The notes under the pieces were generated by a model. The model was given only the letters and a program-made list of their open reading frames with translations, searched no databases and was not told where the DNA came from. Position numbers and translations under genes: made by a program. From Naegleria gruberi (Eukaryota), in assembly GCA_000004985.1 (NCBI GenBank), contig GG738864.1: 64,000 nucleotides of DNA. One strand, written 5' to 3'. Positions 7,242 through 24,493 of the stretch are shown here, one piece after another. Positions within the stretch are counted from its first letter, which is position 1; each line of letters opens with the position of its first letter.

Positions 7242-9095
7242 TTATTCTGAAACAGAAGCTCCTTTTCTTCTCATTACCAAATTACCAATCATGTACTTGG
7301 TAGTCAGAGTTTGAGCAATAGTTCCAATACCATCCACACCAATCTTTTCATTGTTACCAATATCGACACGTTTGAGAGTTTTGTGATCGATAAGAGCCTT
7401 GACTAAACTCTTGGCACCTGCATTATCGAATGGATTTCCGTGTAAACTCAAATCCTTGAGTCCTCTATTGTAAAGGATACCGTCATTACATAAACGAATA
7501 AGACCCTCTGATCCAATAGCATTGAATGACAAGTCCAAAGTTGCCAATGTCTTATTGGCCTTCAATCCTTCAGCGAGAGCTGAGCAACCTTCATCTCCAA
7601 TATTATTATGACCCAAATCCAAACGTTTGAGAAGTGAATTTGAGCATAGAGCTTTGGAAATTGATTTGGCACCATCTGAACCGACTCTATTATAGGAAAT
7701 ATCAAGTCTTTTGAGTGAAACATTGCCTAGTAAGAGATCGCTCAAATAAACACAACCAACATTTCCAATATTATTATGTGAAAGAGTTAATCTCTTCAAT
7801 GTAATGTTAATAAATAGACCGTCTATTAAATCACAAATACCAAAATCAGAAATCAAGTTAAATGACATATCAAGTGAAGTAATAGTTTGATTATCAGCCA
7901 AACCATGGGCCAATAACTTTAAATGTTCATCACCAACATTACAATTGACAATGGATAAACTCTTGAGTGAAACTCTAGAACTTTGAATACAGGTTGTAGT
8001 AAGAGCTTTCAAATCTGAAATTGTGAAAGGATCTTCACCTTCCAAAACTAATTTTTCAATATTAGATTCACGTTTAGCATCATTTTCCTTGTCTTCATCT
8101 GAAGAAGTATCAATAGCAGCAACTGCAGTCAATAACATAACAACAGACAAGAGTGGTCTCTCAACTCCACAAATTTTACAATCGACAAAGTAATCCTCAA
8201 CGAAAATACAAGCTCTAATTCTCTTAACCCAATCCTTGGCATCTTGCATACTTGGAGCAGCCATAAACAGTTCACGATCAGCTGCAATAACACAAAACTT
8301 GTACTTGTAGGCATTGCTTTCGAGTTTTCTTTGAATTTTTGATTGATCACCTCCACCTGCTGAGCTTTCATTATTTGCAGATGATGAATTGGATCCCTTA
8401 GTATTGGTTTCTTCATCTTCATCATCACTATCTAAATCTTCATTATCTAAAACTGTATTAATTCTAATAGTTTGAAAGAAACTATCATAATTTTGAATAT
8501 CTCCCAAATAATAAACTTGAGCTCCCTTCAAATCCATTCTACCTTTGACATCATTTTCATTCTTTTTAGCATTTTTGAAATAGGTCAACACTGAACCTTT
8601 AATTTGGAAATAACGCTATTTACACATTCATCACAAATTTCACATAAATTTCACATAAATTGTTATTCGAAATACATTATTAAAATAAATTTTCATCAAA
8701 TTCAATTTAAATTTCATCACCAATCATCATTATAACCACAATACAAATTACACATTTCATACGAAACTCAACTAAACACTTACCTTCTTCCAACTCTTCA
8801 CCACACGTCCTTCCTTTATCAAAAACCCTTCCTTCCACACTTTTTCATTATATTCCGTATAAATATCGAATCCCTGTGATCCAGGTGTACCAACAGGACT
8901 CGAAGGAGAAGACAAATCATGATTTGAATTTGTTCTGGAAATTGTTTGCAAAGTTGTTGGAGTAATTTGTGAAGTTCCACCGAGGTAGGAAAATCCGCTG
9001 CCACTTCCTTGTTTTTGTAGAGGTGAAGTGGTAGTTGGTGATCCTGTTGGTGTAGAGCTGCCTGAATCCTTCTTCTTGTTGAAGATGCTACGCAT
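7242..9095 (-). CDS. PH-domain plus RNI-type leucine-rich-repeat protein (2 exons)
   Basis: Exon 1 is 8784-9095 (104 codons) and exon 2 is 7242-8615, with a 168-nt intron at 8616-8783 (gtaagt...atag). Splicing rebuilds a PH-like segment, KEGFLIKEGRVVKSWKK|RYFQIKGSVLTYFKN. The C-terminal half consists of about 28-residue ribonuclease-inhibitor-like LRRs (LxxLDLSxNxIGxEG). Confidence 0.7.
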
Positions 9096-14443: not shown

Positions 14444-15877
14444 ATGAAACTTATCAATTTTCTAAGTCTTCTTGATAGCTGTTGGTGCACTGTCTTCTAA
14501 CTTGGTTTCGTCACAAGAAGTTAGGGATGTTTCTTTGAAAGTATGTTAAAAATCTCTAGATTTAGTCAATTACAAGCTTTTAAGATACACTGGCTTCTCT
14601 ATCGACCTAATTCAATTTCTTGTTTCCAAAATGACAAACGTGTCCATTGAATTTTATGAAGCTCCAGATGGTACCTTTGGTAGTCCAACTGCTGCGAATG
14701 TGAATGGAAACTGGTCAGGAACCATCGGTGAAATAATATCTGGTCGTGCTGATGTCATGATTGGCCCTTTAACAATTACTCAAAGTAGACATCAAGTCAT
14801 GGATTTTACAACAAGTTTCTTTGATGTTGGACTTTCTATTCTAACTCTTAAACAAGGAGAGGAATCTAATTTATTTTCATTCTTATTACCATTCTCGTGG
14901 GAGGTTTGGATTTTGATTTTCGTGAGTGCATTAATAGTTGCCTTGCTAACATGGGTTTTTGACCATGTTTCGCCTTATGGACATTCGAAACAATCAGACG
15001 AATCAAAGAATGAATTTGATTTTAGTGGTTCGTTAATCAATGTATGACAATATCTGGTCAAGACGGAAATCCAGGTAAAAGCTGGTCAACCAGAATCATG
15101 TTGTTAGGTTATTTCCTCTTTGTCATGATTATTCTCTCAACTTATACAGCTAATTTGGCAGCCGTCCTGACAACAAAGGTTCAATCCACAAGAGTTACTG
15201 GACTATCTGATATCAGAACCTACGGATTCAAGTTTGGTGTGGCTAAAAACTCTGCTCCTGCTTCTTACATTTCCAGCAGTGAAGACATGGCAGATATCAA
15301 AAAGAATATGGTTGTATTCGATTCCCTCGATGATTGTTTACAAGCTCTGAGAGATGGAAAGGTGGATGCTTTGATTTGGGCAAGTGCCATTCTCGAATAT
15401 ATGGCCAATCAACCACCATGTGATACTTTGGTCGTTGGTGATTTGTTTAGTCCTGGAAATTATGGTTTACCTTTTGCTAAGGGAAATTGGATGATTGGTC
15501 ATTTCACTTCGGTGTTGTTGTCGATGAGAGAAAGTGGACTTGTTGAGAAACTCAAAAGGAAGTGGTGGATTGATAAGGGAAGCTGTTCATTGGTTGAATT
15601 GACACAAACAGCAACAGGTGTAAAGATTCAAGACTTGGGAGGTATCTTTTTGATTTTGGCAGGTTTTGTAGTTGTTGGTGGTGTGGTTTTGATATTCGAA
15701 TTAGTATATAGGGCTGTATATGACAAGACAAAACACAAAACTAAACATCTGAAATATCTGAATAGATTCTTGGGAGGTGAAAAGCACCTAGTTCAACGTG
15801 AGAAAGATGTACAGGAATTGAACACCACGAATATTGCAACTCCAACACTCGAAAAAGATGGGAATATGAACCAGTAA
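14444..15877 (+). CDS. Ionotropic glutamate receptor-like channel without amino-terminal domain; frame disrupted
   Basis: An S1 lobe (YTGFSIDL...GPLTITQSRHQVMDFTTSFFDVGLSIL) is followed by M1, a pore-loop region (NEFDFS/WFVNQCMTISGQDG) and M3 with the STYTANLAAVLT signature. Then come the S2 lobe and M4 (GGIFLILAGFVVVGGVVLIF). Frame problems occur near 14470, at the TAA at 14547-14549 and near 15024-15026. Confidence 0.7.
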
Positions 15878-16055: not shown

Positions 16056-16173
16056 GGCTACGGCCATATCACGATGAATGCACCTCATCCCGTCCGATTT
16101 GAGAAGTTAAGCATCGTCGAGCCACATCAGTACTGAGGTTGGAGACAACTTGGGAACCTGTGGTGCTGTAGTC
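16056..16173 (+). rRNA. 5S ribosomal RNA
   Basis: The 118-nt sequence GGCTACGGCCATATCACG...GGGAACCTGTGGTGCTGTAGTC aligns by eye to the eukaryotic 5S consensus. The terminal helix I pairs and a T6 run follows directly. Confidence 0.9.
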
Positions 16174-16288
16174 TTTTTTATTTAACATTTTTTTATTCTG
16201 CCTTAATAAACTGTATTGTCTAGACTTTCTTTGAAACTGAATTTACGTGAATTTATTCGGCTGGAACTTGATTTTTACCACCTTATTA
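16126..16288 (+). repeat. Left arm of inverted duplication (5S 3' portion plus downstream flank)
   Basis: This arm aligns by eye to the reverse complement of 17488-17636. Shared blocks are atcagtactgaggtt(g/a)gagacaacttgg(g)aacctgtg, ttatt(ctg/cca)ccttaataaact, ttctttgaa and ttaccaccttatta. Confidence 0.7.
16174..16179 (+). terminator. Pol III oligo-T terminator of the 5S gene
   Basis: TTTTTT immediately after the 5S 3' end. Confidence 0.7.
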
Positions 16289-16321: not shown

Positions 16322-17278
16322 TTACACCATCAAACAGCCTTTCTTTTTTTTATGTAGAGATAATACCTCTTCCAGCACTTTTTTTGGATCATCAATACGT
16401 ACTCGAAACTTTCTAACACATTCTTCCACTAATTTATCAATATTTTCATTTGTTTTTGCACTTGTTTTCAAAATTGTACAATTAGTCAATTCAAATTCTT
16501 TTACAACTTCTTGTACCATTTCCAAATTAATTTCATACCTATCAGGGAGATCACATTTGTTCATGGCAATCATACAGGGAGCATTCTTTCCCTTCCTATC
16601 TACAAATTTACTTATCAATATTTTCAATTCTTCCAAACTTTTCTGGTCTATCATTGAGCAAACAAGAATCAAAACATCGAACATGCAATTTTTCCAATAA
16701 TAATCAGTTTCTTCCTCACTACACGTATCCAAAAAGTTTACAGTTTCCTCTTCATCATCCACAGAGATTGTTCGTTTGTACGAATCATAACCGGTAGGGT
16801 CATATTCTAGGAAGAATTGCCCATATATAAATCTTGTTATGATTGAGGATTTTCCACTGCCTCCCCTTCCAATCACTAACAGCTCAATAATTGGTGTATC
16901 AAATTTTTTTCTAAATATTTTCCCTTGTTTTTCTCTTGTTCGAATCAAATGAATAAAGTAACCTAAACTTTTAACAACTCCAATCTTGGCGAATTTATCA
17001 AAAACATGCAAAGATTCCATTTCTTTTGATTCTACTGATATCGAATACTGATCAAATATCACACCAACAAAAATCCAACAAAATTCATCAATGTATTTTG
17101 CAATAAATTTCGAATAATTTGGATGAATCAATCGGAAACTTAATACATTCGGAATGGAGTTTTTTAATTGATGGAAATATTGTTCATGCAATTTTCTTTC
17201 AGCTAACTCATAAAACGGAGACAAGTATGAAATAATTTCTGTATGAATCTCTTGGGGAAGTTGAAGAAATTTGGACAT
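16322..17278 (-). CDS. Ras-superfamily small GTPase with N-terminal F-box-like extension and CaaX end
   Basis: 318-aa ORF with N-terminal LPQEIHTEIISYLSP (F-box-like). The GTPase motifs are G1 GRGGSGKS, a divergent G3 DTCSEEE (consensus DTAGQEE), G4 NKCD and G5 SAK. The C-terminus is KKKKGCLMV, polybasic plus CaaX. Confidence 0.7.
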   Translation of the reverse strand: MSKFLQLPQEIHTEIISYLSPFYELAERKLHEQYFHQLKNSIPNVLSFRLIHPNYSKFIAKYIDEFCWIFVGVIFDQYSISVESKEMESLHVFDKFAKIGVVKSLGYFIHLIRTREKQGKIFRKKFDTPIIELLVIGRGGSGKSSIITRFIYGQFFLEYDPTGYDSYKRTISVDDEEETVNFLDTCSEEETDYYWKNCMFDVLILVCSMIDQKSLEELKILISKFVDRKGKNAPCMIAMNKCDLPDRYEINLEMVQEVVKEFELTNCTILKTSAKTNENIDKLVEECVRKFRVRIDDPKKVLEEVLSLHKKKKGCLMV

Positions 17279-17393: not shown

Positions 17394-17466
17394 GCCGACA
17401 TAGCTCAGTTGGGAGAGCGTAAGACTGAAGATCTTAAGGTCCCTGGTTCGATCCCTGGTGTCGGCA
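17394..17466 (+). tRNA. tRNA-Phe (anticodon GAA)
   Basis: A 73-nt cloverleaf: acceptor GCCGACA/TGTCGGC plus discriminator A, D arm GCTC-AGTTGGGA-GAGC, anticodon arm TAAGA-CTGAAGA-TCTTA, and T arm CCTGG-TTCGATC-CCTGG with one T:T mismatch. An oligo-T run follows. Confidence 0.85.
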
Positions 17467-17864: not shown

Positions 17865-18881
17865 TCAAATAACACCAATATCAAGTGATGTTAATTGTTT
17901 CATTTCACTTATGAATTTGGATCCTTCTACACCAATTTGATTGTAAGTAATGTCAAGTGATGTTAATTGTTTCATTTCACTTATGAATTTGGCTCCTTCT
18001 ACACCAATTTGATTGCCAGTAATATTAAGTGTTAATTGTTTCATTTCACTTATAAATTTGGATCCTTCTACACCAATTTGATTGTAACCAATATTAAGTG
18101 ATGTTAATTGTTTCATTTCACTTATATATTTGGATCCCTCTACACCAATCCCATTATAATATATATCAAGTGATGTTAATTGTTTCATTTCACTTATGTA
18201 TTTGGCTCCTTCTACACCAATTTGATTGTAACCAATATTAAGTGATGTTAATTGTTTCATTTCACTTATATATTTGGTTCCCTCTACACCAATTCCATTA
18301 TAATATATATTAAGTGATGTTAACTGTTTCATTTCACTTATGTATTTGGATCCTTCTACACCAATTTGATTGTAAGTAATGTCAAGTGATGTTAATTGTT
18401 TCATTTCACTTATGTATTTGGCTCCTTCTACACCAATTTGATTATCAGAAATATAAAGTGATGTTAATTGTTTCATTTCACTTATGAATTTAACTTTATC
18501 TGGAGAGTTACGCAACCTATAACAAAACTTAACATTTACAATACTATTCTTGAATTGGCTTTTCATAAACAATTCAATTCTATTTTCTGTAAATTGTTTT
18601 TTAAATTGAATAACAAGTCTTGAACGTTCCCGGATCACATTAAAGAATTGTTTTGAAATTAAAGAACAATTATTCAAAATAAACCACGAATCATCAATCA
18701 TGGAAATTATGTCAAAACAAACATCATCTGAAAATATATCTTGTTGGAGTTTCACAACTTTTTTTGCTTTCTCTTTCATCGAATAATTATCATTAATCAA
18801 TAGCTCCTCCGAAATTAATTGATTTGCAAAATCTTGGCTGATTCGTTTGCTCATTTTTTTATTACTAATAGTTTTCTTCAT
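17865..18881 (-). CDS. Leucine-rich-repeat protein with possible degenerate F-box-like N-terminus
   Basis: 338-aa ORF. The C-terminal 210 aa are 8.5 near-identical 24-residue units of the form ISEMKQLTSL(D/N)IxYNxIGVEG(A/S/T)K(Y/F). Confidence 0.75.
   Translation of the reverse strand: MKKTISNKKMSKRISQDFANQLISEELLINDNYSMKEKAKKVVKLQQDIFSDDVCFDIISMIDDSWFILNNCSLISKQFFNVIRERSRLVIQFKKQFTENRIELFMKSQFKNSIVNVKFCYRLRNSPDKVKFISEMKQLTSLYISDNQIGVEGAKYISEMKQLTSLDITYNQIGVEGSKYISEMKQLTSLNIYYNGIGVEGTKYISEMKQLTSLNIGYNQIGVEGAKYISEMKQLTSLDIYYNGIGVEGSKYISEMKQLTSLNIGYNQIGVEGSKFISEMKQLTLNITGNQIGVEGAKFISEMKQLTSLDITYNQIGVEGSKFISEMKQLTSLDIGVI
17868..18490. repeat. 72-bp tandem repeat array (coding LRR units)
   Basis: About 8.5 head-to-tail copies of a 72-bp unit with high nucleotide identity. 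One unit carries an in-frame 3-nt deletion (LTLNI in place of LTSLNI). Confidence 0.8.
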
Positions 18882-21745: not shown

Positions 21746-24493
21746 ATGAACATTCTCTTCTTGGTTGATACATCTTCATCGATGAATCAACTCACAACCA
21801 ATGGGATGAAATTGATTGATATTTCCAAGCATTGTATTGAACATTTCATCAAGAATAGACAAAAACATTTAATGCACCAACAAAAAAGGGATAATTATCT
21901 ATTGGTAACATCTGGACAAAAGGTAGTTGTTGGATGGAAAGATGCCACGGAATCATCATGTTTCCTTCAAAGATTGAAATCCCTAAAGGCTAATGATTTG
22001 ACTGAAATTGGGCCATCTTTGAAAAAGTCTTTTGATGTTTTAAATCAACATCGGCTTCAAAAAGGAGTGGACCATTATGGCATGGGAAGACATGCAAGTG
22101 CTGTAGAAAATTCTGCTATTGTTTTAATTACGGATGGTGAAAGATTAACTCAATCTGTTAATCCATTCGACCAAAGAGTATTTGTAAATCAATTTTTGGA
22201 TGCCAACAAATTGACACTCCCTAATCCACATTCATATTCTACAAAATTGACAGAGGAACCATTTAGATGGGATCAAAGAGTGTTCAGTATTATTTTACAA
22301 TTTCAAGCTGTTGGTACTTCTTTGACAACTGTTTCTCCATCAGCTTCACTTAATCCCTCATTGGCCAATCAACAACAACAACAAGCCAATTTGACAAATC
22401 AAACACCAACTATTACAGATAATCCAATAGCTCCAATAAGTGAAGTTACAGGTGGCTTATCGAGAACTTTCTCAAATATGGTTTCTCTCCTAAAATTTAT
22501 GGATGATTTATCTGGTGTTCAGCTTGCTAGACCTTCAGTGGTTGTAAATTTTGACATTGTAAAAACATTGAATAATAAGCAATCCAGTGTTTTCCCTCCA
22601 ACAAATAATGAGGGTCTAGGAAAAACTGTACTACAATATATTACTCAACCTCAGCAAAGAGAATCCTTTTGGCCAATACCAGAGAACTATCTTCCAGGTG
22701 CTAACATGACAGAACTGCCAACAAGAAGAGCTCAACCATCTATTTCTTTACTATATACTGAAAAGAATGATATTCTTTTGACAATGGCTCTTAACAAATT
22801 CCCAATTTATGATATTTTTGAAATCAGTACTCAAAGTCCAATTGGAAAATATGTTATTCAACAGTCAAGCAGAGAAGGATGCTATAAAGCCTTTGTAACA
22901 AACAGTACTCCGAGTAATTATGGATTTGGAGAAAGTTTTGGATTTTTAAAGAAGATTGCTGTCCAAAATAGTACTGGAGAAGTTGAAAATAAGATTTATT
23001 TCTACCTTCTGCCATATAACTTTTTGAGATTATTTTATTTGATGAATGAGTTTGTTGTAACCCACAAGTCTCAACCCTCAGCTGCTTGGATCCAACAGTT
23101 CCATAAATTTGTACAGAATCTCCCTGCCTACTATATCAAACCACTTAAATCAGCGATGAACAAATGGTTTGGAGCATTTGCCCATTTCCCTGATGTACCT
23201 TACGAACTACCAAGCTCATTACAACTCTATTACAAGCAACTAGTTGATGAGGAGAAACGATTTAACAAAGATATGGAATTAGAGGAAAGTGGATCATCTA
23301 CCAATGTAAATTTACCAAATGACTCACTTCCAAAAAATGACGACCAAATGCAAGATCCTCCATCCTTCCCAATAATCAGTTTCACAAATCCATATGTTGC
23401 CAAAAAGGAAACCAATAATTTAATTAGAAATCCATTCGATATCGACAAAACATCACTCCTGAAACAAATGAAAATGATGAGCCAGTACCTTTTCCATTCA
23501 GTTGTTGTAGAAGTTCCAGAAGATGCTGACCATTCTAAAATACCTTTGGATCAACATTTAAGAGATTTATCAAAAGAAGAAATTAAGAAACACTCCACTC
23601 CAATATCTCAAATGGGTAACTTTGATAAGGTATTATTGTCTAAGGAGGTTTTGAGAGACCCATTCGAGCCTCAAAAGCAGAAACAAGTCAACTTTGGAAG
23701 CCCATATCAGAAAAAGAAAAAGAGATTGAGATCAATTCATATGAACGCCCCATTACTTCTCGATAAATTAGTTGATGAATCTGAGATGGATCTGAAACAA
23801 AAGGAGGAGGAAGAATCATCAGAATTTGATGCAAAGGTGGAATCAATGCTCTTATTAGAACCAAACATTGCCGATTCAAATGTATCATCAATACCAGTTG
23901 AACCTAGTTCAGCTCCACTTGAAACACACGAACCTTTTGAAACAGAGTTAGAAAAGATTGAACCAGTTCCACCAATTATTGAAGATGCTGTTCCAATTAT
24001 TGTAGATGATGTAATACCTGACCAATATGCAGCCCTAACACAAAGTAGTACTAAGCCACAATCCCCTACCTCAAATCTTCCTGGTAAAGCGGCCAATTTT
24101 AGACCTCCATCAACCAATAGAAAATCTAAAGCTAATCCTCAAAAAGAACATGCTCAATTATTTGTTGATAGTTTCCAAAACAACCATGAATGTTTACAAT
24201 TTGTTTCTCAACTTCCTGACCCTTTACTTTCAGCTGTTGTGACGAGAGTAATGCAACAAGAATTAACAGATGGCAAAAAGAAACAACAACTAGATGCCAT
24301 TAGATCAAAGATAAGAAAAAGAAAACGTAAAGACATGGAAGAATTGGAAGAAGCAAAAGATATTACTTCTGATATTAATAAGGTTCATTTCCCAACTAGA
24401 GAAAGTAGGACAGTCTTTGTTAGAGAAATAATCGCTATAGCCGCTTTATTTAAAAAAACCAAACTAGCTCAATTATTGACAGAAGAGCTCTAA
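21746..24493 (+). CDS. Integrator complex subunit 6-like protein (N-terminal VWA domain)
   Basis: 915-aa ORF. The start MNILFLVDTSSSMNQ plus AIVLITDGERLT gives a VWA MIDAS-like pattern, as at the INTS6/DDX26 N-terminus. The conserved-looking C-terminal block is REIIAIAALFKKTKLAQLL. Confidence 0.6.
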   Translation: MNILFLVDTSSSMNQLTTNGMKLIDISKHCIEHFIKNRQKHLMHQQKRDNYLLVTSGQKVVVGWKDATESSCFLQRLKSLKANDLTEIGPSLKKSFDVLNQHRLQKGVDHYGMGRHASAVENSAIVLITDGERLTQSVNPFDQRVFVNQFLDANKLTLPNPHSYSTKLTEEPFRWDQRVFSIILQFQAVGTSLTTVSPSASLNPSLANQQQQQANLTNQTPTITDNPIAPISEVTGGLSRTFSNMVSLLKFMDDLSGVQLARPSVVVNFDIVKTLNNKQSSVFPPTNNEGLGKTVLQYITQPQQRESFWPIPENYLPGANMTELPTRRAQPSISLLYTEKNDILLTMALNKFPIYDIFEISTQSPIGKYVIQQSSREGCYKAFVTNSTPSNYGFGESFGFLKKIAVQNSTGEVENKIYFYLLPYNFLRLFYLMNEFVVTHKSQPSAAWIQQFHKFVQNLPAYYIKPLKSAMNKWFGAFAHFPDVPYELPSSLQLYYKQLVDEEKRFNKDMELEESGSSTNVNLPNDSLPKNDDQMQDPPSFPIISFTNPYVAKKETNNLIRNPFDIDKTSLLKQMKMMSQYLFHSVVVEVPEDADHSKIPLDQHLRDLSKEEIKKHSTPISQMGNFDKVLLSKEVLRDPFEPQKQKQVNFGSPYQKKKKRLRSIHMNAPLLLDKLVDESEMDLKQKEEEESSEFDAKVESMLLLEPNIADSNVSSIPVEPSSAPLETHEPFETELEKIEPVPPIIEDAVPIIVDDVIPDQYAALTQSSTKPQSPTSNLPGKAANFRPPSTNRKSKANPQKEHAQLFVDSFQNNHECLQFVSQLPDPLLSAVVTRVMQQELTDGKKKQQLDAIRSKIRKRKRKDMEELEEAKDITSDINKVHFPTRESRTVFVREIIAIAALFKKTKLAQLLTEEL

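What the first reader, a model, noticed from the sequence alone, without database searches (positions are those of the whole stretch)
16322..17278. Ras-like GTPase with an F-box-like N-terminal extension, a degenerate switch II and a CaaX tail
G1 (GRGGSGKS), G4 (NKCD) and G5 (SAK) are intact. G3 reads DTCSEEE instead of DTAGQEE, so both the Gly and the catalytic Gln are lost, which predicts a GTPase-deficient, constitutively GTP-bound or non-cycling protein. A ~130-residue N-terminal extension starts with LPQEIHTEIISYLSP, the first half of an F-box. The C-terminus is polybasic plus CLMV, a prenylation box. Combining an SCF adaptor motif with a membrane-anchored Ras-like module is unusual.
Basis: partly seen in the sequence, partly recalled or inferred. 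Interest (0 to 1): 0.5.

Follow-up and report, generated by a model that had tools for sequence, protein, structure and literature searches.

The report
Naegleria Ras GTPase with cryptic F-box
This is a real Naegleria gruberi gene for a divergent Ras-type GTPase with a degraded F-box-like head, an altered catalytic loop and a lipid-anchor tail; it belongs to a small amoeba-specific family, and F-box-plus-GTPase fusions are already known to be common in Naegleria, so it is a modest addition rather than a surprise.

Summary
Window 16322..17278(-) is an intact 318-codon ORF identical to N. gruberi XP_002678008.1 ("ras family small GTPase"). Alignment to RalA/Rap1b shows G1 GRGGSGKS, Thr35, NKCD and SAK intact. 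G3 reads DTCSEEE (A59C, G60S, Q61E), and the tail is KKKKGCLMV.

Alone, the N-terminus scores below Pfam's F-box cut-off (12.9-13.7 bits). However, the protein belongs to a family found only in Naegleria and Willaertia, plus a few unassigned environmental sequences. Members share an LPxEI head, a helical linker, a Ras domain, a C-terminal helix and KKKCxxM.

- The family head matches bona fide F-boxes profile-to-profile (95%, P 4e-8; shuffles reach at most 5.7%).
- All ten best PDB hits are F-box proteins.
- The signal comes mainly from helix 1, and AlphaFold models give no F-box fold.
- Most members lack Gln61 (Pro, Ala, His or Glu instead). This suggests weak or GAP-insensitive hydrolysis across the family, but that is untested.

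Herman et al. 2021 already reported F-box fusions with Rab-like, Rho, Ran and Gα GTPases in Naegleria. They list this gene as plain Ras.

Most likely function (inferred): a prenylated, non-cycling Ras-like module linked to SCF ubiquitin ligase. Novelty is low to moderate.

The parts
16322..17278 (-). Complete single-exon gene: 318 codons plus stop. Encodes XP_002678008.1, a Ras-family GTPase with an N-terminal extension and a CaaX tail.
17066..17266 (-). Residues 5-71: diverged F-box-like module. It comprises LPQEIHTEIISYL (helix 1), a roughly 21-residue insertion (A25-V45), LSFRLIHPNYSKF (equivalent to l..V.K.W) and YIDEFCW (equivalent to d..lW).
16895..17065 (-). Residues 72-128: helical linker between the F-box-like module and the G domain. 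Lys102 is nearly invariant in the family.
   Evidence: The region is predicted all-helical with low to moderate pLDDT.
16406..16894 (-). Residues 129-291: Ras-type G domain. G1 GRGGSGKS (137-144), switch I YDPTGYDSY (159-167), G3 DTCSEEE (184-190), G4 NKCD (240-243), G5 SAK (273-275).
   Evidence: Pfam Ras E 2.8e-25. PDB alignments. AF2 pLDDT is about 90 for the domain. Motif table.
16709..16729 (-). Codons 184-190: G3/switch II DTCSEEE in place of DTAGQEE (A59C, G60S, Q61E).
16325..16405 (-). Residues 292-318: short C-terminal helix, polybasic KKKK and the CaaX box CLMV (Cys315).
   Evidence: Cys315 is invariant in the family alignment, whose consensus is KKKCxxM.

Best explanation
The gene encodes a fast-evolving member of a lineage-specific family. 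The family is seen only in the heteroloboseans Naegleria gruberi, N. lovaniensis and Willaertia magna, plus a few environmental sequences of unknown origin.

Shown:
- Family members share one architecture: a diverged F-box-like module (LPxEI...W), a helical linker, a Ras-derived G domain, a C-terminal helix, and a polybasic CaaX prenylation signal.
- The nucleotide-binding motifs (G1, Thr35, G4, G5) are intact.
- The catalytic Gln61 is replaced in most family members. In this protein Gly60 of DxxG is also replaced.

Inferred:
- The protein is prenylated and sits on a membrane.
- It binds guanine nucleotide but hydrolyses GTP poorly and is insensitive to RasGAP. It therefore acts as a static or slowly cycling binding module rather than a fast switch.
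- Its F-box-like head recruits Skp1-Cullin, so the Ras-like domain would serve as the substrate- or partner-recognition end of a membrane-bound SCF ubiquitin ligase.

This would work like RhoBTB (an atypical Rho domain plus a Cul3-binding BTB domain), using the SCF route that Naegleria has repeatedly attached to Rab-like, Rho, Ran and Gα GTPases.
For: Real gene and Ras domain.

Family and shared architecture:
- The full HMMER scan found relatives aligning through the N-terminus: P0037 over query 6-291, P0026 over 32-305, P0009 over 56-295.
- The alignment has L7, P8, E10 and C315 invariant and W68 nearly invariant.
- Sources are N. gruberi, N. lovaniensis and W. magna.
- More N. gruberi members appear in Herman et al. 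Table S8.
- The window N-terminus matches a family HMM built without it, E 4.5e-7.

F-box ancestry:
- hhalign gives 95%, P 3.7e-8, score 38.5, against a maximum of 16.0 in 100 column shuffles.
- The reference F-boxes all pass Pfam cut-offs.
- All 10 best PDB profile hits are F-box proteins.
- 8 of 10 members give sub-threshold F-box-like hits; P0048 covers profile positions 2-44 of 47.
- Removing the insertion in silico lifts the window sequence to 21.2 bits, above the 20.5 cut-off.

Loss of Gln61: most members aligned with the head carry Pro, Ala, His, Glu or another residue at position 61. Only P0147, P0155 and XP_002673837 keep Gln. All 8 non-family Ras relatives have DTAGQEE.

Precedent: F-box-GTPase fusions in Naegleria and a suggested GTPase-dependent ubiquitination; TbFRP.
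Against: - No family member reaches Pfam's F-box gathering score (best 22.9 against 24.3).
- The homology signal rests mainly on helix 1. The part after helix 1 aligns in the right register, but only at P 0.026.
- The 21-residue insertion and the replacement of the usual Lys-x-Trp by Pro-Asn-Tyr could abolish Skp1 binding.
- Q61E does not necessarily abolish intrinsic hydrolysis.
- X = Val is a non-consensus CaaX ending; the family consensus is Met.
- A neighbour-joining tree of the G domain alone gives no bootstrap support for family monophyly.
- There are no expression data.
Confidence: 0.5

Rival explanations
1. The N-terminal module is a decayed F-box remnant that no longer binds Skp1. It now serves as a family-specific helical domain, for example for autoinhibition, dimerisation or effector binding. 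On this view the protein is simply a membrane-anchored atypical Ras with no link to ubiquitination.
For: Pfam scores are sub-threshold in every member. The second half of the F-box is not independently significant. The AF2 model is a generic helical bundle with no F-box hits. There is a 21-residue insertion, and the conserved Lys/Trp of helix 3 is lost in this protein.
Against: L7, P8 and E10, the residues that define the start of an F-box, are invariant across a family that is otherwise only 13-23% identical to the window protein in this region. That indicates purifying selection on the F-box signature itself. Isolated F-boxes are often poorly modelled without Skp1.
Confidence: 0.25
2. The F-box-like head does not make the protein a substrate adaptor. 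Instead it couples the GTPase itself to SCF for rapid turnover or processing, as was proposed for the trypanosome FYVE-F-box-GTPase TbFRP.
For: The TbFRP authors link its F-box to rapid proteolysis that releases the GTPase domain. F-box proteins are commonly auto-ubiquitinated (general knowledge).
Against: There is no evidence on stability here. No FYVE domain or other TbFRP feature is present. TbFRP's G domain is Rab18-like, not Ras-like.
Confidence: 0.12
3. The gene is a non-functional or decaying copy in a birth-and-death family. On this view the odd G3 motif and the weak F-box simply reflect relaxed constraint.
For: - Its closest relative (44.6% identity in the G domain, sister in 60 of 100 bootstraps) is a putative pseudogene with a wrecked P-loop and a frameshift.
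- No relative above about 35% identity was found in N. lovaniensis or W. magna.
- It has the second-lowest Ras-domain score among the nine complete family members scanned: 89 bits against 82-158.
- Herman et al. describe birth-and-death dynamics for the F-box Rab-like clades.
Against: - The 318-codon frame is intact in AT-rich DNA (chance about 3e-11).
- G1, Thr35, G4 and G5 are all intact.
- All family-invariant residues, including the CaaX Cys, are kept.
- The curated census does not flag it as a pseudogene.
Confidence: 0.13

Closest known systems
Naegleria F-box-GTPase fusions (Rab-like, Rho/Rac, Ran, Gα) described by Herman et al. 2021, BMC Biol 19:142, Supplementary Material 4 and Table S8
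   Same: Same organism and the same layout: an N-terminal F-box followed by a small-GTPase domain. [quoted passage not shown] The clades are lineage-specific and rapidly evolving, with pseudogenes. The authors make the same inference of GTPase-linked ubiquitination.
   Different: The G domain here is Ras-type: best PDB matches are Ral, Rap and Ras, and the authors themselves list it as 'Ras'. The paper names only Rab, Rho, Ran and Gα as F-box partners. It lists this gene and its relatives as plain Ras with no extra domain. The F-box here is too diverged for Pfam.
RhoBTB (atypical Rho GTPase fused to BTB domains, Cul3 adaptor)
   Same: A small-GTPase domain with non-canonical catalytic residues sits in one chain with a cullin-RING-ligase adaptor module. 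This is the closest analogy for how the protein might work (general knowledge; cited as a comparator).
   Different: The adaptor is BTB/Cul3, not F-box/Skp1/Cul1. The GTPase is Rho-type and N-terminal. There is no CaaX anchor. No BTB domain was detected here.
TbFRP (FYVE-F-box-GTPase of Euglenozoa; PMC3593210)
   Same: An F-box lies upstream of a small-GTPase domain in another discoban lineage, and membrane targeting is built into the same chain.
   Different: Membrane targeting is by a PI3P-binding FYVE domain, not by prenylation. The G domain is Rab18-like. The authors found no N. gruberi orthologue. No FYVE domain is present here.
Naturally hydrolysis-impaired small GTPases (Rnd, RhoH, RGK family; 'pseudoGTPase' class that still binds nucleotide)
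   Same: G1, G4 and G5 are intact while the switch II catalytic residues are replaced. In RGK proteins the DxxG glycine is also replaced (from general knowledge, not tested here).
   Different: These are unrelated subfamilies of animal proteins with no F-box. Biochemistry is known for them and unknown for this protein.

Membership tests
Ras family small GTPase (Pfam PF00071) | Profile score above the curated cut-off over the whole G domain | tested here: met
   89.2 bits against a cut-off of 21.6, residues 133-291, profile positions 2-160 of 162. Best solved relatives are RalA, Rap1b, Ras, Di-Ras and R-Ras2, at E 1e-21 to 1e-17.
Ras family small GTPase (Pfam PF00071) | Nucleotide-binding motifs G1 GxxxxGK[ST], switch I Thr, G4 NKxD, G5 SAK | tested here: met
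   GRGGSGKS, YDPTGYDSY, NKCD and SAK all align to the Ras motifs.
Ras family small GTPase (Pfam PF00071) | G3 DxxGQ with Gly60 and the catalytic Gln61 | tested here: not met
   The motif reads DTCSE: A59C, G60S, Q61E. Only Asp57 and Thr58 are kept.
Ras family small GTPase (Pfam PF00071) | C-terminal CaaX prenylation box | tested here: met
   The tail is CLMV at the extreme C-terminus after KKKKG, and the Cys is invariant in the family. X = Val is non-consensus (family: Met). Actual prenylation was not tested.
F-box domain (Pfam PF00646 / PF12937) | Profile score above the curated cut-off | tested here: not met
   The window protein scores 12.9-13.7 bits against cut-offs of 20.5 and 24.3. The best relative scores 22.9 against 24.3. 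Only an in-silico construct lacking the 21-residue insertion reaches 21.2 bits on PF00646.
F-box domain (Pfam PF00646 / PF12937) | LPxE[IL] start plus the hydrophobic helix 1 pattern | tested here: met
   The sequence is LPQEIHTEIISYL. L7, P8 and E10 are invariant in 12 of 12 family members.
F-box domain (Pfam PF00646 / PF12937) | Profile-profile homology to bona fide F-boxes | tested here: met
   hhalign gives 93-95%, P 3.7e-8 to 2.6e-7. In 100 column shuffles the maximum probability was 5.7% and the maximum score 16.0, against 38.5 observed. The reversed alignment gives 0.1%. The reference set passes Pfam cut-offs. All 10 top PDB profile hits are F-box proteins, at weak E-values of 0.06-1.8.
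F-box domain (Pfam PF00646 / PF12937) | Helices 2-3 (l..V.K.W..l) recognisable on their own | tested here: inconclusive
   With helix 1 removed, hhalign still finds the right register (SFRLIHPNYSK against l.rVckn), but at P 0.026 and probability 1.9%.
F-box domain (Pfam PF00646 / PF12937) | Compact three-helix F-box fold | tested here: inconclusive
F-box domain (Pfam PF00646 / PF12937) | Binds Skp1 | not testable with these tools
   This needs a multimer prediction or a binding assay.
Heterolobosean F-box-like-Ras-CaaX family (defined in this report) | N-terminal module matches a family HMM built without this protein; shared invariant residues; same domain order | tested here: met
TbFRP (FYVE-F-box-GTPase) | N-terminal FYVE domain | tested here: not met
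   No FYVE hit in Pfam at E up to 1.
RhoBTB | BTB domains and a Rho-type G domain | tested here: not met
   No BTB hit, and the G domain is Ras-type.

The most novel reading that the evidence does not exclude
A previously unrecognised Heterolobosea-specific class of prenylated SCF substrate receptors. In this class a Ras-derived, hydrolysis-dead G domain is the nucleotide-dependent substrate-recognition module. It would place Ras-type GTP sensing directly inside a membrane-bound cullin-RING ligase, a Ras counterpart of RhoBTB that arose independently. The published Naegleria GTPase census lists these genes as plain Ras.
Probability: 0.3. Interest if true: 0.5.

Novelty: new member of a known kind. 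Interest (0 to 1): 0.3.

Why it matters
If the diverged head still binds Skp1, Naegleria and Willaertia would have wired Ras-type GTPases into SCF ubiquitin ligases. Rab-like, Rho, Ran and Gα fusions are already known there. That would strengthen the idea that GTPase-dependent ubiquitination is a major regulatory mode in these amoebae.

It would also give a natural series of switch II variants to study: Q61P, Q61A, Q61H, Q61E, and loss of Gly60.

In practical terms, at least eight or nine N. gruberi genes now listed as plain 'Ras' probably carry a cryptic F-box-like domain. Standard Pfam thresholds miss it. This is an annotation refinement, not a new principle.

Tried and rejected
- Word-indexed searches of the 5.8-billion-protein set gave almost nothing. 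The full protein returned only itself and one weak hit. The N-terminal profile returned only two W. magna proteins. The exhaustive HMMER scan was needed to find the family.
- There is no paralogue inside the 64 kb window (tblastn).
- The neighbour-joining tree of the G domain gave 0 of 100 bootstrap support for family monophyly. The environmental members and one short Ras (P0018) interleave. The family rests on shared architecture and the N-terminal HMM, not on the G-domain tree.
- TbFRP orthology was rejected: no FYVE domain and a different G-domain type.
- Reading the gene as a mis-called or chance ORF was rejected.
- dN/dS against the nearest paralogue was not attempted. At 45% amino-acid identity, synonymous sites are saturated.

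Full report
**What is there**

Window 16322..17278 on the minus strand is an uninterrupted ORF of 318 codons. An in-frame TAA lies two codons upstream of the ATG. At this base composition, 318 open codons have a chance probability of about 3e-11. The translation is 100% identical over its full length to NCBI XP_002678008.1 / EFC45264.1, 'ras family small GTPase [Naegleria gruberi]'. The window is therefore N. gruberi nuclear DNA at about 33% G+C. The gene lies between a 5S rRNA gene (16056-16174, +) and a tRNA-Phe gene (17394-17466, +).

**Check of the motif reading**

Pfam Ras (PF00071) matches residues 133-291 at E 2.8e-25. HMMER alignments to solved RalA and Rap1b chains (E about 1e-21) place the motifs as follows:
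- GRGGSGKS on G1
- YDPTGYDSY on switch I, with Thr35 kept
- DTCSEEE on DTAGQE(D/E)
- NKCD on G4
- SAK on G5

In H-Ras numbering the changes are A59C, G60S and Q61E. The C-terminus is HKKKKGCLMV.

**The protein is not an orphan**

An exhaustive HMMER scan of 1.84 billion representatives found many ordinary Ras proteins. It also found relatives of 315-366 residues whose alignment runs into the N-terminal extension: P0037 over query 6-291, P0026 over 32-305, P0009 over 56-295, and also P0147, P0128, P0022, P0024, P0048 and P0090.

These come from N. gruberi, N. lovaniensis, Willaertia magna and a few environmental contigs. All share the same order of parts:
- an N-terminal LPxEI...IL.YL motif
- a variable loop
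- an 'l.s[IV].k.f' segment and a 'YFN..WW+' segment
- a helical linker
- the Ras domain
- a C-terminal helix
- a tail of the form KKKCxxM

L7, P8, E10 and C315 are invariant, and W68 is nearly so. An HMM of the N-terminal regions built without the window protein matches its residues 2-71 at E 4.5e-7 for a proteome-sized search space.

Table S8 of Herman et al. 2021 holds further N. gruberi members: XP_002673059, XP_002677816, XP_002673837, XP_002668120 and one from unassembled reads. All are listed as plain 'Ras'.

**Is the head an F-box?**

On its own, no. PF00646 and PF12937 give 12.9-13.7 bits against cut-offs of 20.5 and 24.3, covering only the first 19-21 profile positions. No relative reaches the cut-off either. 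Still, 8 of 10 give sub-threshold F-box-like hits, and P0048 (22.9 bits) covers profile positions 2-44 of 47.

At family level the evidence is better:
- A profile of the N-terminal alignment searched against all PDB sequences returns ten hits, and all ten are F-box proteins: Legionella AnkB, FBXW7 (several entries), FBXL5, TIR1, FBXO3, FBXO42 and cyclin F. Their E-values are weak, 0.06-1.8.
- I took nine Naegleria Rab and Rac F-boxes from Herman's Table S8. Every one passes Pfam's cut-offs at 28-65 bits.
- hhalign of the family head against this set gives probability 95%, P 3.7e-8 and score 38.5.
- In 100 column-shuffled controls the maximum was probability 5.7% and score 16.0. The reversed alignment gives 0.1%. 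Leaving the window protein out changes nothing.

The alignment places a roughly 21-residue insertion (A25-V45) between helix 1 and 'LSFRLIHPNYSK', the counterpart of l..V.K.W. Deleting that insertion in silico lifts the window sequence to 21.2 bits on PF00646, just over the cut-off. This construct is exploratory; its boundaries were taken from hhalign.

There are two cautions.
- The signal is carried mainly by helix 1. With helix 1 removed, the right register is still found, but only at P 0.026.

I conclude that common ancestry with F-boxes is likely (about 0.7) and that retained Skp1 binding is open (about 0.4-0.5).

**Switch II across the family**

All eight non-family Ras relatives examined have DTAGQEE. 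The members with the LPxEI head show the following at G3:
- DTAGPE (several)
- DTAGAE
- DTAEHM
- ETSEHD
- DTAALH
- DTI-ESD
- DTCSEE (this protein)

Only P0147, P0155 and XP_002673837 keep Gln61. Loss of the catalytic Gln is therefore a family trait, not a quirk of this gene. This gene and a few others have also lost Gly60.

What this means biochemically is inferred, not shown. Reviews in the held library report an eight-fold lower GTPase for Q61E and Q61P H-Ras (Der et al. 1986), but an increased intrinsic GTPase for Q61E. They also report raised GTP loading for NRAS G60E. From memory, Pro and Glu are the two codon-61 substitutions that do not transform cells, and Gly60 substitutions block the GTP-induced switch II movement. 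I have not verified these two points here.

G1, Thr35, G4 and G5 are intact, so nucleotide binding is likely. Fast GAP-driven cycling is unlikely. 'Constitutively GTP-bound' is only one of several possible states.

**The tail**

Cys315 is invariant in the family and is preceded by a basic run. The family ending is CxxM in 9 of the 12 aligned sequences (8 distinct endings), which predicts farnesylation. This protein ends in CLMV. Val is a non-consensus X residue, so prenylation is plausible but less certain, and the enzyme cannot be assigned. This is my knowledge of CaaX rules and was not tested.

**Evolutionary context**

The nearest relative of this gene is a copy on N. gruberi contig ACER01000199.1. 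It is 44.6% identical in the G domain and is the sister of the window gene in 60 of 100 bootstraps. Herman et al. flag that copy as a putative pseudogene. An almost identical copy sits on a 936-bp environmental contig (L001). There I could see a damaged P-loop (GSVYSGKT), no Thr35 and a frameshift after G3.

No relative above about 35% identity turned up in N. lovaniensis or W. magna. The window gene is thus a fast-evolving, apparently species-restricted paralogue in a birth-and-death family. Its intact frame, intact nucleotide-binding motifs and retained family-invariant residues argue that it is still functional. This is not proven.

**Comparison with what is known**

Herman et al. 2021 (BMC Biol 19:142, Supplementary Material 4) make several relevant statements:
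- F-box is the most frequent additional domain on Naegleria GTPases.
- It is found with Rab, Rho, Ran and Gα domains.
- Three divergent Rab-like clades carry N-terminal extensions that are identifiable as F-boxes in at least some members.
- One of these clades ends in a CaaX motif.
- This points to GTPase-dependent ubiquitination.

Ras is not among the partners they name, and this gene is listed with no extra domain. TbFRP of Euglenozoa (FYVE-F-box-Rab-like GTPase) is another discoban precedent. RhoBTB is the closest functional analogy.

What is new is modest. A Ras-type subfamily carries a cryptic, sub-threshold F-box-like head, and that subfamily has largely given up Gln61.

**Verdict**

The best explanation is a prenylated, poorly hydrolysing Ras-like module tethered to an F-box-like head, possibly acting as a membrane-bound SCF receptor (overall confidence about 0.5). 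The rivals are a dead F-box remnant (0.25), self-turnover (0.12) and a decaying gene (0.13). Novelty: a new member of a known kind. Interest: 0.3.

Noticed in passing
window 16056-16174 (+) and 17394-17466 (+): The GTPase gene is flanked tightly by two Pol III genes. A 5S rRNA gene (105 bits) lies 147 bp beyond its stop, and a tRNA-Phe(GAA) gene lies 115 bp upstream of its ATG. This is a dispersed 5S copy rather than one in an rDNA array.
   Followed up: partly
window 14631-15047 (+) and 15044-15877 (+): An ionotropic-glutamate-receptor-like gene (Lig_chan-Glu_bd, then Lig_chan) is split into two ORFs in different frames that overlap by 4 nt. The cause could be a short intron, a frameshift or an assembly error.
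   Followed up: no
window 17865-18881 (-) and 7242-8591 (-): Two LRR_6 repeat proteins typical of the Naegleria LRR expansion. The first has an N-terminal stretch (FSDDVCFDIISMID...CSLISKQFFNVI) that looks like an F-box lacking the Leu-Pro, which Pfam does not call. Cryptic F-box-like heads may be common in this genome.
   Followed up: no
L001 1-936 (ENA metagenome ERZ929261 contig): An environmental contig nearly identical to the N. gruberi putative pseudogene on ACER01000199.1, the closest paralogue of the window gene. It has P-loop GSVYSGKT, no Thr35, a frameshift between G3 and the next strand, and a hydrophobic tail instead of CaaX. The gene caller annotated only the C-terminal 127 residues (P0008).
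   Followed up: partly
P0003 (541 aa, source not looked up): Three tandem Ras domains in one predicted protein. Each is followed by a polybasic run and a Cys-containing tail: KKKKGKCLLI twice, internally, and KKGKCSLM at the C-terminus. It looks like a read-through fusion of a tandem array of CaaX Ras genes, or a genuine multi-Ras protein.
   Followed up: no
Herman et al. 2021 Table S8 (PMC8296547, supplement 10), N. gruberi sheet: At least five further N. gruberi entries listed as plain 'Ras' carry the same LPxEI head and a C-terminal CaaX-type box: XP_002673059.1, XP_002677816.1, XP_002673837.1, XP_002668509.1 and XP_002673033.1. Two more listed sequences appear to belong: one from unassembled reads, whose listed sequence starts after the LP motif but ends in CSVM, and XP_002668120.1, which has the LPYEI head but whose listed sequence stops before any tail. 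XP_002680544.1 has a CaaX tail and a badly degenerate P-loop (GPGGSGIH) but no LPxEI head.
   Followed up: partly
window 21746-24493 (+): A 915-aa ORF with a VWA domain plus an INTS6 beta-barrel, an Integrator subunit 6-like protein. It is ordinary and was noted only as context.
   Followed up: no
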